DNA of 41,256 bases. It comes from a bacterium (GTDB taxonomy: Bacteria > Bacillota > Clostridia > Christensenellales > Aristaeellaceae). A model generated the notes under the pieces. The model was given only the letters and a program-made list of their open reading frames with translations, ran no database searches and had not been told where the DNA came from. Of this stretch, positions 123 through 32,361 are shown piece by piece (position 1 is the stretch's first letter; each line of letters opens with the position of its first letter). Where the stretch lies: positions 1-41,256 of the forward strand of contig CAVJHY010000001.1 of the NCBI GenBank assembly GCA_963649405.1, read 5' to 3'. The translations under genes and the position numbers were made by a program.

Positions 123-1376
123 TTATAATGCCAAATTCCCGCTTTCCACCATGTGCTGAATGGCGCTGGTAAGCGCGAGCTTGCCGTGGGTGTATGTGAG
201 ACCGCCCTGCATATAGACCGTGTACGGCGCACGCATGGGGGCATCAGCGGACAGCTCGATGGACGCGCCCATGACGAATGTTCCGGCAGCCATGATGACC
301 TGATCCTGATAGCCGGGCATATCCCAAGGCTCAGGCACGGCGTTGCTGTCCACGGGCGAGGCTGCCTGAATGCCCTGACAGAAGGAAATGAGGCGCTCAG
401 GCGTTTCCATGTTGATAGCCTGAATGATGTCGGCTCGCGGCGCGTTAGAAGCAGGGGTTGTCTTAAAACCTAAAAGTTCAAAGCATCGGGCGGCCAATAA
501 TGCGGTCTTCACGGCTTGCGTGACCGTGTGCGGCGCCATGAAAAGCCCCTGATAGAAGGGACGGTAGGAGGCCGCATAACTGCCGCATTCCCTGCCAATG
601 CCGGGCGCAGTCAGCCGCGCCTCAATGCGGTGAATGGCGCGATTCGTGCCGACTAAGTACGCGCCGGTCGGGGCAAGCCCGCCGCCCATGTTCTTGATGA
701 GACTGCCGACGGCCACATCCGCGCCCATATGCGTCGGCTCTTCATCGCAGACAAAGCCGCCGTAACAGTTGTCCACCATGATGAAAATGTCAGGGCGCAC
801 CGCGTGAACGGCATCAATCAGGGGTTTCATGTCGGTGGGGCGCACGGCAGCACGCCACGCATAGCCGCGGCTGCGCTGAATGAGGATGACCGTGGTGTTT
901 TCCTGAATTGCTGCAAGCACGGCGGGTACATCAATCTGCCCGTCCGCCGTCATATCGACAGCCGAATAGGAAACGCCCATCTCTTTCAAAGAGCCAACGC
1001 CGTCTCCGCTCAGACCAATCACTTCGTCCATCGTGTCATAGGGCTTTTCCGTCGCGGCCAAGAGATGGTTGCCGGGAGTCAAAAGTCCGAACAGACACAT
1101 GGACAGCGCGTGCGTGCCGGAGGTGATGTGGGGGCGCACGATGGCGGCTTCCGCGCCGAAGAGATCGGCAAAGATTTTTTCCAGCGTATCGCGCCCCACA
1201 TCGTCATAGCCATAGCCCGTGGTGGGCGCAAAGTGGCGGGCGGCCACCTCGTGTTTCTTGTATAGGTCAAGAATTTTCTGCGTGTTGCGCAGTTCCCGCT
1301 CGTCCAAAGCGGCAAATTGCGCTTGTAAATCCTGCTCGGCATTACGAATGAGAGCGGTGATTTTGTCGTTATTCAA
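123..1376 (-). CDS. ynbB: YnbB / 'aluminium resistance protein' family PLP-dependent enzyme (Met gamma-lyase-like fold)
   Basis: The 420-aa ORF reads like the YnbB family that lies downstream of miaA/hfq in Firmicutes. The ORF-track start (GTG 1385) has no SD. TTG at 1376 lies 6 nt after GAGGTG, so I prefer it; the start remains uncertain. Confidence 0.8.
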   Translation of the reverse strand: MNNDKITALIRNAEQDLQAQFAALDERELRNTQKILDLYKKHEVAARHFAPTTGYGYDDVGRDTLEKIFADLFGAEAAIVRPHITSGTHALSMCLFGLLTPGNHLLAATEKPYDTMDEVIGLSGDGVGSLKEMGVSYSAVDMTADGQIDVPAVLAAIQENTTVILIQRSRGYAWRAAVRPTDMKPLIDAVHAVRPDIFIMVDNCYGGFVCDEEPTHMGADVAVGSLIKNMGGGLAPTGAYLVGTNRAIHRIEARLTAPGIGRECGSYAASYRPFYQGLFMAPHTVTQAVKTALLAARCFELLGFKTTPASNAPRADIIQAINMETPERLISFCQGIQAASPVDSNAVPEPWDMPGYQDQVIMAAGTFVMGASIELSADAPMRAPYTVYMQGGLTYTHGKLALTSAIQHMVESGNLAL

Positions 1377-1394
1377 AGGAAACACCTCACAAAG

Positions 1395-1424
1395 AGTGGA
1401 TAGTGGTTAGTGAATAGTGGACAG
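1395..1424. repeat. Heptanucleotide tandem array, four units of AGTGGAT-type (AGTGGAT AGTGGTT AGTGAAT AGTGGAC)
   Basis: The 7-nt periodicity was read directly. It is the inverted counterpart of the array at 1551-1580. On the minus strand it ends 6 nt before the SD of the YnbB-like gene. Confidence 0.85.
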
Positions 1425-1469
1425 ATAAGAATGTTACGATGAAGCGGTAGTGGTCAGGGAAAAGTAAAT

Positions 1470-1518
1470 AGGAATTAGGAAACAGGAAACAGGGAACAGA
1501 GAATAGGAAACAGGAAAC
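1470..1518. repeat. Heptanucleotide tandem array, seven units, consensus AGGAAAC (GUUUCCU on the minus-strand RNA)
   Basis: AGGAATT AGGAAAC AGGAAAC AGGGAAC AGAGAAT AGGAAAC AGGAAAC, read directly. Four copies are perfect. Confidence 0.85.
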
Positions 1519-1550
1519 AGAAGTGCAACTTTATTGCTTGCTGGTCAACA

Positions 1551-1580
1551 CTATATCTATCCACTATCCACTAATCACTG
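1551..1580. repeat. Heptanucleotide tandem array (CTATATC TATCCAC TATCCAC TAATCAC TG), inverted relative to 1395-1424
   Basis: Read directly. It overlaps the last five codons and the stop of miaA. Positions 1563-1580 are identical to 32323-32340. Confidence 0.85.
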
Positions 1581-2478
1581 AAATTTGTTCAAGTAAGTCA
1601 GTAATCATTGTATGCTCGTCTACCGTGAGCCAGTGAATGCGTTTGTCGCGCCGAAACCAAGTGAGCTGGCGTTTGGCATAGTTGCGCGTTTTTTGTTTGA
1701 TGAGGGCAGCGGCATTTTCAAGCGTTTCCGTGCCGTGCAGCACGGGCAGAAGCTCCTTATAGCCAAGCCCCTGCATGGCCTGTGCCTGTTCGGGAACGCC
1801 GCTTTTGATGAGTGTTTCCACCTCGTCAAGCAGCCCCTCTTGCAACATATTGTCCACGCGCTTTTCAATGCGTTCATACAGCCGCTGCCTGTCCATGTCG
1901 AGCGCAAAGAGCGAAAAGTCATAGGGTGCGTCCGCCTCGGTCGGCATCACCTGCTCGGAAAACGGAACACCCGTCAGGTCATAGACCTCCAAGGCGCGAA
2001 TCACGCGGCGCGTGTCGTTCGGATGGAGGTGGGCGGCGCTTGCCTTGTCAACCTTTTCAAGCAGGGCATGGAGCGCCTCAGCGCCCTCTGCATCGCAAAT
2101 CGCCTGATATTTTTCGCGGATGGCATTATCGCCGCGCACGAAGCCGAAATCAAGCGGCAGGGACAGGGCGCTTAAATAAAAGCCCGTACCGCCGACTAAA
2201 ATCGGCGTATCGATTTTTTTAATCAGCGGGTGGGCAAGGGCAGCATACTCCGTGACGGAAAAGGCTTCCGTCGGCTCGACCACATCAAGCAAATGATGCG
2301 GGACACGCGCCTGTTCTTCCTTGGTCGGCTTCGCCGTGCCGATGTCCATACCCTTATAAATCTGCATGGAGTCCATGCAGAGAATTTCGCCATGAAGCCG
2401 CTCGGCCAGTGCCAGCGAAACGGCGGTTTTCCCGCTGGCGGTCGGGCCGACAAGCCCCCAAACTCGTTTCTTTTTCAT
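1564..2478 (-). CDS. miaA: tRNA dimethylallyltransferase MiaA
   Basis: N-terminal P-loop GPTASGKT and an IPP-transferase-type sequence throughout. Its ATG shares one nucleotide with the mutL stop (TGATG). Confidence 0.95.
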   Translation of the reverse strand: MKKKRVWGLVGPTASGKTAVSLALAERLHGEILCMDSMQIYKGMDIGTAKPTKEEQARVPHHLLDVVEPTEAFSVTEYAALAHPLIKKIDTPILVGGTGFYLSALSLPLDFGFVRGDNAIREKYQAICDAEGAEALHALLEKVDKASAAHLHPNDTRRVIRALEVYDLTGVPFSEQVMPTEADAPYDFSLFALDMDRQRLYERIEKRVDNMLQEGLLDEVETLIKSGVPEQAQAMQGLGYKELLPVLHGTETLENAAALIKQKTRNYAKRQLTWFRRDKRIHWLTVDEHTMITDLLEQISVISG

Positions 2479-32138: not shown

Positions 32139-32146
32139 GTACGCAT

Positions 32147-32188
32147 AAAAAGAAGCCGGCTTATCTTGCTGTGCTTCTTTTTGTTTTT
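32147..32188 (+). terminator. Rho-independent terminator after rpmE
   Basis: AAAAAGAAGCCGGC-TTATCTT-GCTG(T)GCTTCTTTTT followed by GTTTTT. Confidence 0.8.
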
Positions 32189-32322
32189 AGCGGGATTTGA
32201 GGGCGTTCGTGTCATCTTGTTTGTGTGATGCAGATTCGACTTTTTCGATGCTTTCAGTCATCATGCCGTTATGATACTTGAGCAACGCAGTCTTTCCTGC
32301 CTTCCCAATTTTAATGAATCTA

Positions 32323-32345
32323 ACTATCCACTAATCACTGTCCAC
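32323..32345 (+). repeat. Second copy of the TATCCAC-type heptamer array (TATCCAC TAATCAC TGTCCAC)
   Basis: Positions 32323-32340 are identical over 18 nt to 1563-1580. The array ends 5 nt before the SD of the DUF1385 gene. Confidence 0.85.
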
Positions 32346-32361
32346 TAAAAAGGAGTACGCC

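What the first reader, a model, noticed from the sequence alone, without database searches (positions are those of the whole stretch)
1395..1580. The hfq slot between miaA and the YnbB-like gene is occupied by inverted heptanucleotide-repeat arrays that can form a 23-position helix
Seen in the sequence: the 178-nt miaA/ynbB gap has no room for hfq and no ORF. Instead it contains three tandem arrays with strict 7-nt periodicity. They are AGTGGAT-type x4 (1395-1424), AGGAAAC-type x7 (1470-1518) and TATCCAC-type x4 (1551-1580). The third is the reverse complement of the first. On the minus-strand (mRNA-sense) RNA, 1579-1557 can pair with 1424-1402. That gives 20 Watson-Crick pairs, 2 G-U pairs and 1 mismatch over 23 positions, enclosing a pyrimidine-rich loop of about 130 nt. 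The right array extends into the last five codons of miaA, so the MiaA C-terminus ...ISVISG is encoded by repeat sequence. From established knowledge, in Bacillus and many Clostridia miaA is followed by hfq. Short tandemly repeated heptamers are well known in cyanobacteria (STRR) but, to my knowledge, are not a described feature of Firmicute intergenic regions. My inference is an RNase III or processing site, or a stabiliser that uncouples miaA from ynbB. Alternatively it could be a small non-autonomous repeat element that replaced hfq.
Basis: partly seen in the sequence, partly recalled or inferred. Interest (0 to 1): 0.62.

Follow-up and report, generated by a model that had tools for sequence, protein, structure and literature searches.

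The report
Heptamer-repeat hairpin inserted between miaA and ynbB
A 189-base insert made of 7-base tandem repeats with two facing, complementary arms has landed inside a formerly overlapping gene pair; it belongs to a widespread, long-noticed but still unexplained class of bacterial heptamer repeats, and it did not replace hfq.

Summary
The three 7-nt arrays and the long helix are real. Period 7 is the only strong short period in the 41-kb window. The sense-strand fold has 32 long-range pairs (z -3.3).

The "hfq slot" reading is wrong. In three relatives that lack the repeats, miaA and the ynbB-like gene overlap by 4-14 nt and no hfq lies there. Removing window 1389-1577 (189 nt) in silico restores such a junction: SD AGGAGGTG, and a TTG start overlapping the miaA stop. 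So this is a lineage-specific insertion into a translationally coupled pair.

The insert is hypermutable. Same-species contigs differ by exactly one 7-nt unit, and a 98% relative differs in all three arrays.

It belongs to the known but unexplained class of intergenic heptanucleotide repeats, in the "facing arms" form (AGTGNNN)n...(NNNCACT)n:
- at least 120 genome loci in many phyla, Firmicutes included;
- facing versus opposite orientation 22:2;
- all 21 tested elements fold arm to arm.

The same architecture brackets PF05635 (23S-rRNA-IVS protein) genes in 32 of 59 metagenomic loci.

Best reading: an ORF-less hairpin repeat element, co-transcribed with miaA-ynbB, that forms an RNase III-type duplex. 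Its effect is probably neutral or modulatory. No transcript data exist for this organism.

The parts
1564..2478 (-). miaA (tRNA isopentenyltransferase). The last five codons (SVISG) and the TAG stop are supplied by the repeat.
   Evidence: Pfam PF01715, E 8e-87. C-terminus compared with relatives.
1389..1577 (-). Inserted segment of 189 nt (boundaries +/-2 nt). It is absent from relatives, in which miaA and ynbB overlap.
   Evidence: Orthologous junctions L123-L125. In-silico removal restores SD AGGAGGTG, the TTG start and an overlapping TAA stop.
1546..1579 (-). 5' arm of the helix in mRNA sense: AGUGAUU AGUGGAU AGUGGAU AGAUAUAG... On the plus strand this is the CTATCCA-type array 1557-1580.
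   Evidence: TRF, inverted repeat I1, folds.
1458..1520 (-). Central array. It reads GGAAACA-type on the plus strand and CUGUUUC-type (pyrimidine-rich) in mRNA sense. It differs by exactly one unit between same-species contigs.
   Evidence: TRF 9.1 copies. A +/-7 nt allele in L001 and L210 versus window, L208 and L209.
1395..1436 (-). 3' arm of the helix in mRNA sense: CUGUCCA CUAUUCA CUAACCA CUAUCCA CU plus the inner extension. It ends 6 nt before the ynbB Shine-Dalgarno sequence.
1374..1388 (-). ynbB ribosome-binding site GAGGTG (1383-1388) and TTG start (1374-1376).
   Evidence: Sequence. Database homologues of 417 aa. Homology of the SD region with L124.
123..1376 (-). ynbB-like methionine gamma-lyase family gene.
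   Evidence: Pfam PF06838, E 1e-169.
32324..32347 (+). Solitary array of the same type (CTATCCA CTAATCA CTGTCCA CTA) immediately 5' of the SD and TTG start (32362) of a DUF1385 gene. It shares an identical 17-mer with 1564-1580.

Best explanation
The feature is an ORF-less member of the widespread class of intergenic heptanucleotide tandem repeats. It has the 'facing arms' form: 5'-(AGTGNNN)n ... (NNNCACT)n-3', which reads the same way on both strands.

Shown:
- About 189 nt were gained in the ancestor of this species-level lineage. The gain sits exactly inside the Shine-Dalgarno region of a formerly overlapping, translationally coupled miaA/ynbB junction.
- The insert gave MiaA a new five-residue tail and a TAG stop, and it left GAGGTG plus TTG for ynbB.
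- Its unit numbers change by steps of 7 nt between strains, which is slippage-type hypermutability.
- The two arms can form a helix of about 32 bp that loops out the roughly 110 nt lying between the paired segments.

Inferred:
- The element is co-transcribed with miaA and ynbB. No terminator lies in it, and the genes were one unit before.
- The long duplex brings the miaA stop and the ynbB start close together again. It is a substrate for RNase III, as shown for the heptamer-repeat hairpin of the H. influenzae hmw 5' UTR and for the stems of 23S rRNA intervening sequences.
- The net effect on the host is small: neutral, or a modulation of ynbB expression that depends on repeat number.
- The orientation seen (GUG- and stop-rich AGUG strand after a stop codon, start-codon-free CACU strand before a start codon) is the one compatible with translation of the neighbouring genes.
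For: Arrays and helix.

Insertion:
- Relatives L123, L124 and L125 have overlapping miaA/ynbB and no repeat.
- Removal of 1389-1577 restores AGGAGGTG-N7-TTG overlapping a TAA stop, with MiaA ending LLEQISGGVSFE*. This tail has the same length as in L125.

Hypermutability:
- Five same-species contigs fall into two alleles that differ by one CCTGTTT unit.
- L122 (98% protein identity) has other unit numbers in all three arrays but keeps the hairpin, z -3.66.

Class membership:
- The pattern CTRWYCACTRWYCACTRWYCACT hits at least 120 genome stretches in many phyla, against about 9 expected by my arithmetic.
- Facing pairs outnumber opposite pairs 22 to 2.
- All 21 facing elements fold arm to arm, 18-34 pairs, median z -8.1.
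- Arrays lie next to gene ends. The AGTG type after stops is 61 versus 23. The CACT type before starts is 36 versus 14.

Same architecture around PF05635 genes:
- 32 of 59 loci have an array beside the gene, against 7 arrays in 123 kb of background.
- Upstream arrays are AGT-type 14:2 and downstream arrays ACT-type 20:0.
- A locus's own arms are complementary at >=19/21 in 10 of 12 loci.

Precedents:
- RNase III cleavage of the hmw heptamer hairpin (PMC12721329).
- RNase III cleavage of the IVS stem (PMC4990558).
- Heptamers just upstream of start codons (PMC4679880).
- Convergent heptamer pairs and length variation in Xanthomonas (PMC4692102).
Against: - No transcript evidence: no RNA reads map for this organism.
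- The one RNA test on a class member (M. buryatense) showed read-through with a dip in depth but no sharp ends. That element is not hairpin-type.
- The stem folds about equally well on the antisense strand. Nothing therefore points specifically to the mRNA rather than to DNA (cruciform or slippage intermediates).
- Non-array parts of the insert diverge from L122 at about the neutral rate: 74-90% identity against 83-84% at four-fold sites.
- The window's hairpin is the weakest of the 21.
- Spacers between arms are unrelated, even within one genome. A single conserved mobile core is therefore not seen and the mode of insertion is unknown. No clear target-site duplication was found.
Confidence: 0.5

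Rival explanations
1. Neutral by-product of replication slippage. A heptamer seed at the junction expanded and decayed in place, and the arms arose by hairpin-templated copying. The RNA has no role, and the orientation bias of the class only reflects which orientations neighbouring genes tolerate.
For: - Unit-number polymorphism in steps of 7 nt.
- Near-neutral divergence of the non-array parts.
- The insert length is 27 x 7, and many 'unique' stretches still keep AG or CT in phase.
- Spacers are unrelated between elements.
- Mrazek's polymerase-slippage proposal, as cited in PMC4692102 and PMC4679880.
Against: - The ancestral junction had no intergenic DNA at all. Growth would have had to start inside the miaA coding sequence and the SD.
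- The class shows a 22:2 architecture with complementary arms, which simple slippage does not predict.
- In H. influenzae, repeat change itself needed the transcribed hairpin and RNase III.
Confidence: 0.25
2. The pyrimidine-rich, G-poor heptamers in the ynbB leader, and in the DUF1385 leader at 32324, are a landing platform for a single-strand RNA-binding protein that covers about 7 nt per monomer. Candidates are a cold-shock-domain protein or S1. The platform would tune translation initiation, and the upstream purine arm would act as an anti-platform.
For: - Both CACT-type arrays in the window end 6-9 nt before an SD.
- Class-wide, CACT-type arrays lie 0-28 nt before starts, 36 versus 14.
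- The same proposal was made for TAACTGA repeats (PMC4679880).
- The 7-nt footprint of cold-shock proteins is from established knowledge.
Against: - Unit sequences differ widely between genomes, so no single conserved specificity fits.
- The element is recent and not visibly constrained.
- Arrays are as common after stop codons in the opposite orientation.
- No binding data exist.
Confidence: 0.12
3. The element is a transcriptional insulator. It either terminates miaA transcripts (hairpin, or Rho loading on the long C/U-rich, G-poor untranslated stretch), or it carries a promoter for ynbB (by eye, TTGCAC-17-TATTCT at about 1526-1498 on the minus strand).
For: - A long stem followed by CUCUUUGUG.
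- About 125 nt of G-poor, pyrimidine-rich RNA after the miaA stop.
- The by-eye promoter match.
Against: - The consensus scan found no terminator or sigma-70-type promoter on the minus strand in 1200-1800.
- The by-eye promoter is not kept in L122.
- The loop is over 100 nt and the stem is AU-rich, unlike intrinsic terminators.
Confidence: 0.08
4. One reading: the repeats occupy the place of a lost hfq gene.
For: Only the general knowledge that miaA is followed by hfq in Bacillus and some Clostridia.
Against: - Relatives have overlapping miaA/ynbB with no room for hfq.
- Removal of the insert restores that state.
- No hfq remnant was found in the window.
Confidence: 0.02

Closest known systems
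H. influenzae hmw1A/hmw2A 5'-UTR (ATCTTTC)n heptamer repeat hairpin (Rapun-Araiz et al. 2025, PMC12721329)
   Same: - A 7-nt tandem repeat lies in the untranslated leader of a gene.
- The repeat forms one arm of a long imperfect hairpin.
- The unit number varies between strains.
- RNase III cleavage there is shown experimentally and is needed for expression and for repeat-number change.
   Different: - There the partner arm is a G-rich non-repeat stretch and the pyrimidine repeat is the 5' arm. Here both arms are heptamer arrays and the purine-rich arm is 5'.
- That is a phase-variable adhesin of a pathogen. Here it is a housekeeping operon junction.
- No RNA or RNase III data exist here.
Intergenic heptanucleotide SSRs: LSSRs (Mrazek 2007, as cited), Xanthomonas GGGAATC repeats (PMC4692102), Beggiatoaceae/cyanobacterial/Bacteroidetes TAACTGA repeats (PMC4679880), 'tandem heptamer repeats' of Mori 2018 (PMC6344855), cyanobacterial STRR
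   Same: - 7-nt unit, intergenic position and length variation.
- Convergent inverted pairs (Xanthomonas).
- Position just upstream of start codons in one orientation (TAACTGA reads as a CT-type unit, CTGATAA).
- Function unknown.
   Different: - The unit sequence here is AGTGGAT/ATCCACT plus CTGTTTC.
- The host is an uncultured Clostridia lineage.
- Here the ancestral state is known (zero intergenic bases), so the gain can be dated and delimited.
23S rRNA intervening sequences with the S23p/PF05635 ORF (Leptospira, Coxiella; PMC4990558)
   Same: - An insert bounded by complementary sequences that form a stem.
- It is tolerated inside an essential transcript.
- The stem is cut by RNase III.
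   Different: - The window element has no ORF and is not in rRNA.
- Whether classical IVS stems are built of heptamers was not checked.
REP/BIME/REPIN and MITE elements
   Same: Short, non-coding, hairpin-forming and intergenic, often at gene ends.
   Different: - No conserved unit or core is shared between copies.
- There is no GTAG-headed REP, no clear target-site duplication and no linked transposase.
- The arms are tandem arrays whose length slips.

Membership tests
Intergenic heptanucleotide simple-sequence repeats (LSSR/STRR-like class) | Head-to-tail units of 7 nt, three or more copies | tested here: met
   TRF. Lag-7 scan, with period 7 the only strong period.
Intergenic heptanucleotide simple-sequence repeats (LSSR/STRR-like class) | Lies outside coding sequence, at gene boundaries | tested here: met
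   It lies between miaA and ynbB. Only the first units overlap the last five miaA codons. Class-wide, 153 of 173 arrays lie outside crude ORFs.
Intergenic heptanucleotide simple-sequence repeats (LSSR/STRR-like class) | Unit number varies between close strains | tested here: met
   One-unit (7 nt) difference among five same-species contigs. Other unit numbers in L122.
Intergenic heptanucleotide simple-sequence repeats (LSSR/STRR-like class) | Convergent inverted pairs, and one orientation just upstream of start codons, as described for GGGAATC and TAACTGA repeats | tested here: met
   Window arms face each other. Both CT-type arrays end 6-9 nt before an SD. Class counts are 22:2 and 36:14.
Cyanobacterial STRR in the strict sense | The named STRR unit sequences (CCCCAGT, TTGGTCA and similar; recalled from memory) in a cyanobacterium | tested here: not met
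   Units here are AGTGGAT/ATCCACT and CTGTTTC. Homologues are labelled Clostridia or Clostridiales.
hmw-type heptamer-repeat 5'-UTR hairpin processed by RNase III | The repeat forms an arm of a long hairpin in the leader RNA | tested here: met
   In silico only: 32 long-range pairs, z -3.26. L122 gives z -3.66.
hmw-type heptamer-repeat 5'-UTR hairpin processed by RNase III | [quoted passage not shown] | not testable with these tools
   No RNA reads for this organism. Inferred from the ancestral overlap of the genes and the absence of a terminator.
hmw-type heptamer-repeat 5'-UTR hairpin processed by RNase III | RNase III cleaves the hairpin, and expression depends on it and on unit number | not testable with these tools
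   This needs an enzyme assay or an rnc mutant.
23S rRNA IVS / PF05635 cassette | The insert is bounded by complementary sequences forming a stem | tested here: met
   PF05635 loci show the same heptamer arms.
23S rRNA IVS / PF05635 cassette | Carries a PF05635 (S23p / four-helix-bundle) ORF | tested here: not met
   No ORF of 30 aa or more lies between the arms on the sense strand. tblastn with the L012 protein finds nothing in the window.
23S rRNA IVS / PF05635 cassette | Located in a 23S rRNA helix | tested here: not met
   It lies between two protein genes. No Rfam rRNA hit in the window.
MITE (non-autonomous transposon) | Terminal inverted repeats | tested here: met
   The arms.
MITE (non-autonomous transposon) | Target-site duplication | tested here: inconclusive
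   Only an imperfect TTTCAGTG / TTTGTG at the two borders.
MITE (non-autonomous transposon) | Many copies sharing an internal sequence | tested here: not met
   Spacers are unrelated between elements, also within one MAG (L059 and L118). The full genome of this organism was not available.
REP/BIME/REPIN | A conserved palindromic unit of about 20-40 nt (GTAG head), repeated genome-wide | tested here: not met
   The arms are tandem heptamers with variable units and no GTAG-headed palindrome.
Intrinsic terminator | Short GC-rich stem, small loop, U tract | tested here: not met
   No minus-strand terminator-like site in 1200-1800. The stem is AU-rich and the loop exceeds 100 nt.
DnaA-box cluster | 9-mers TTATNCACA | tested here: not met
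   No match in the element; three matches elsewhere in the window. Class units such as GACCACT do not fit.
miaA-hfq locus | hfq directly downstream of miaA, or a remnant of it | tested here: not met
   Relatives have overlapping miaA/ynbB. No Hfq-like hit (query sequences recalled from memory).

The most novel reading that the evidence does not exclude
Facing heptamer arrays (5' AGT-type ... ACT-type 3') mark a pan-bacterial family of hairpin-bounded inserts. Their cargo, when present, is the PF05635 / 23S-rRNA-IVS four-helix-bundle gene. ORF-less copies such as this one are their commonest form. The arms make the insert loop out and be cut from any host RNA by RNase III. That would explain why it is tolerated in 23S rRNA, around 5S rRNA (L005) and inside a translationally coupled operon. 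It would also give the unexplained excess of intergenic heptamer repeats in prokaryotes a concrete origin.
Probability: 0.2. Interest if true: 0.7.

Novelty: new member of a known kind. Interest (0 to 1): 0.4.

Why it matters
Tandem heptamer repeats are reported as the most abundant periodic repeat in prokaryotic intergenic DNA, with "no clear clue" to their function (PMC6344855).

This locus is a clean natural before-and-after case. The ancestral junction had zero intergenic bases, so the whole element, its borders and its consequences can be delimited. Those consequences are a new MiaA tail and stop codon, a split SD and lost translational coupling.

Strain-level alleles that differ by one unit are already available.

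The locus also extends the class to gut or rumen-type Clostridia.

Through the survey done here, it links the facing-arm architecture to PF05635/IVS-protein genes. The papers I could search do not mention that link. If RNase III cuts this stem, the hmw mechanism shown in Haemophilus would extend to a housekeeping operon in a distant phylum.

Tried and rejected
1. RNA evidence for this organism. Only DNA contigs hold the sequence, and three RNA runs with the same label gave 0 reads.
2. RNA test on a cultured class member, Methylotuvimicrobium buryatense L053.
   - The flanks show read-through on the gene strand with a dip and no sharp ends.
   - That element's arms are not complementary, so the test says nothing about RNase III.
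3. DnaA boxes. TATCCAC is the box core, but no TTATNCACA lies in the element and units vary across the class. Rejected.
4. Wobble asymmetry as a sign of sense-strand RNA selection. Both strands fold about equally well. No signal.
5. Promoter inside the element (TTGCAC-17-TATTCT, by eye). It is not found by the scan and not conserved in L122.
6. Rfam. No family at gathering threshold, and only noise at E<1.
7. A CsrA sponge from the plus-strand GGA-rich array. There is no evidence of a plus-strand transcript, so it was not pursued.
8. A conserved mobile core. All-against-all comparison of the spacers found none.
9. Arm covariation. Arms share variable triplets more than chance, but this is confounded by genome-specific unit preference, so it is not used as proof of pairing.
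10. 'All-frame stop codons' as the reason for the 7-nt period. Only about half of the arrays close all three frames.
11. The absence of start codons on the CACT strand is largely forced by my search pattern. It is offered as an inference only.

Full report
OBSERVATION

The arrays are real.
- TRF reports period-7 arrays at 1395-1421, 1458-1520 and 1557-1573.
- A lag-7 self-match scan finds three arrays, all within 1391-1584. Periods 4-6, 8, 10 and 11 give none in the 41-kb window.
- The outer arrays are reverse complements: arms 1402-1427 and 1554-1579, 88% complementary.

Read on the minus strand, which is the sense strand of both genes, the order is as follows:
- miaA (2478..1564);
- AGUGAUU AGUGGAU AGUGGAU AG...;
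- about 45 nt;
- eleven in-phase CU-type units (CUGUUUC and variants);
- about 20 nt;
- CUGUCCA CUAUUCA CUAACCA CUAUCCA CU;
- 6 nt;
- GAGGUG;
- TTG start of the ynbB-like gene (1376..123).

RNAfold pairs 1579-1546 with 1402-1436. That gives 32 pairs, -47.5 kcal/mol and z -3.26. The antisense strand folds about as well in absolute energy.

The MiaA tail SVISG and its TAG stop are repeat sequence. Rfam finds nothing.

WHAT THE JUNCTION LOOKED LIKE BEFORE

Homologues of the ynbB-like protein were used to fetch orthologous contigs.
- In L123, L124 and L125 (81, 83 and 76% protein identity) miaA and ynbB overlap by 4-14 nt. There is no repeat and no hfq.
- L122 (98%) and four same-species contigs carry the element.

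Removing window 1389-1577 (189 nt) gives ...CAAATTTCAGGAGGTGTTTCCTTTGAATAA...:
- an AGGAGGTG Shine-Dalgarno sequence 7 nt before the TTG start;
- a miaA TAA stop overlapping that start;
- a MiaA tail (ISGGVSFE) of the same length as in L125.

So the element is an insertion into the SD of a translationally coupled pair. The 'hfq slot' idea does not hold. No Hfq-like sequence is in the window.

HYPERMUTABILITY AND CONSTRAINT
- Window, L208 and L209 differ from L001 and L210 by exactly one CCTGTTT unit and one SNP.
- L122 has three homogeneous CTATCCA units in the 3' arm, fewer central units and one change in the 5' arm. It still folds into the long hairpin, z -3.66.
- Four-fold degenerate sites of the two flanking genes are 83-84% identical between the window and L122.
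- The non-array parts of the insert are 74-90% identical. That is roughly neutral.

THE CLASS

By record titles the hits fall in:
- Acidobacteriota, Planctomycetota, Chloroflexota, Bacteroidota, Verrucomicrobiota and Cyanobacteria;
- Proteobacteria, Campylobacterota, Desulfobacterota, Cloacimonadota and Nitrospirae;
- eleven Firmicutes loci.

Many of these loci show the window's architecture.
- Adjacent arrays within 1.5 kb are AGTG...CACT in 22 cases and CACT...AGTG in 2.
- All 21 facing elements with spacers of 200 nt or less fold arm to arm, with 18-34 pairs and median z -8.1. The window's is the weakest.
- With crude ORF calls, AGTG-type arrays follow stop codons (61 versus 23), often supplying the stop. 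CACT-type arrays precede start codons by 0-28 nt (36 versus 14).

Caveats on these counts:
- ORFs end in AGTG arrays partly by construction.
- The sample is defined by my pattern.

Spacers between arms are unrelated, even within one MAG, and may hold an ordinary terminator (L118). The arms share variable triplets more than chance, but this is confounded by genome-specific units.

A second locus in the window (32324-32347) has a solitary CT-type array directly before the SD of a DUF1385 gene. It shares a 17-mer with 1564-1580 and is conserved in two same-species MAGs.

LINK TO PF05635
- In L012 the arms enclose a gene of the 23S-rRNA-intervening-sequence protein family (PF05635, E 1e-42). L011 and L088 are similar.
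- A scan of metagenome contigs for relatives gave 80 loci. Of the 59 with enough flank, 19 have a 7-periodic array upstream, 25 downstream and 12 on both sides, so 32 have at least one. The background in the same loci is 7 arrays in 123 kb.
- Upstream arrays are AGT-type (14:2) and downstream arrays ACT-type (20:0).
- A locus's own arms are complementary at >=19/21 in 10 of 12 loci, against 7% of cross-locus pairs at >=18.
- I found no paper in the held library that links PF05635 or S23p genes with heptamer arrays.

LITERATURE
- Heptamer SSR excess and the slippage idea: Mrazek 2007, as cited.
- Xanthomonas GGGAATC repeats with convergent pairs and length variation: PMC4692102.
- Tandem heptamers as the most abundant intergenic periodic repeat, with no clue to function: PMC6344855.
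- TAACTGA repeats just upstream of start codons, with S1, Csp or CsrA proposed as binders: PMC4679880.
- The H. influenzae hmw 5'-UTR (ATCTTTC)n hairpin, cut by RNase III and needed for expression and for repeat-number change: PMC12721329.
- The Coxiella IVS stem, cut by RNase III: PMC4990558.

MECHANISM

Shown:
- insertion;
- a new stop and tail for MiaA;
- loss of the stop/start overlap;
- an intact GAGGTG-TTG for ynbB;
- slippage-type polymorphism;
- a predicted long duplex.

Inferred:
- co-transcription;
- formation of the duplex between rounds of miaA translation. A ribosome terminating at 1564-1566 would cover most of the 5' arm;
- juxtaposition of the miaA stop and the ynbB start by the stem;
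- RNase III cleavage;
- a small or modulatory net effect.

The polarity of the class places the GUG- and stop-containing strand after stop codons. It places the start-codon-free, G-poor strand before start codons. I take that to be the orientation neighbouring genes tolerate. This is an inference, because my pattern forces part of that property.

VERDICT
- The feature is a new member of a known but unexplained kind.
- Interest is moderate, mainly as a well-delimited natural experiment and for the PF05635 link that surfaced.

Noticed in passing
window 32324-32347 (+): A solitary CT-type heptamer array (CTATCCA CTAATCA CTGTCCA CTA) lies directly before AAGGAG and the TTG start (32362) of a DUF1385 gene downstream of rpmE. 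It shares an identical 17-mer with 1564-1580. It is conserved in two same-species MAG contigs, with one SNP inside a unit.
   Followed up: partly
L126-L205 (metagenome contigs); L012 3191-3680; L011 5700-7013; L088 5690-6066: Genes of the PF05635 / 23S-rRNA-IVS four-helix-bundle family are bracketed by complementary inverted heptamer arrays in about half of the loci. The AGT-type array lies upstream and the ACT-type array downstream. No paper in the held library mentions this.
   Followed up: yes
L005 4860-5130 (minus strand): In a Cloacimonadota MAG, heptamer arrays flank the 5S rRNA gene. ACTTCTC-type units lie before it and AGTGAAC/AGTGACA units after it, outside the usual 5S processing stem. 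This polarity is opposite to the common one.
   Followed up: no
L053 3661-3830 (Methylotuvimicrobium buryatense 5G): (AGTGAAT)10 is followed after about 45 nt by (TTTCCTC)5(TTCACCC)n, between two genes on the minus strand. The pyrimidine unit is nearly the window's central unit. RNA-seq shows transcription through it with a dip in depth. Loose read ends show further TTTCCTC arrays elsewhere in that genome.
   Followed up: partly
L048 7096-7175: An AGTGGTT/AGTGGTC array grades directly into an (AGGGATC)n array. This resembles the G-quadruplex-prone GGGAATC repeats of Xanthomonas and suggests that the heptamer families grade into one another.
   Followed up: no
L118 1152-1371: Facing arms enclose a spacer holding an ordinary bidirectional intrinsic terminator (AAAAAACGCATGCTC...GCGTGCGTTTTTT). 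Arrays can therefore sit at the two edges of a normal intergenic region.
   Followed up: no
window 1401-1520, run X1: Contig depth in a metagenome rises about ten-fold over the central array. Contigs continue into unrelated sequence on both sides, so other loci in that community carry GGAAACA-type arrays.
   Followed up: no
window 1389-1577: The insert length of 189 nt equals 27 x 7 (and 63 x 3), and the longer allele equals 28 x 7. The L122 insert (about 162 nt) is not a multiple of 7.
   Followed up: no
window 32146-32192 (+): A terminator-like hairpin and T run (AAGAAGC...GCTTCTTTTTGTTTTT) lies just after rpmE. The consensus scan did not report it.
   Followed up: no
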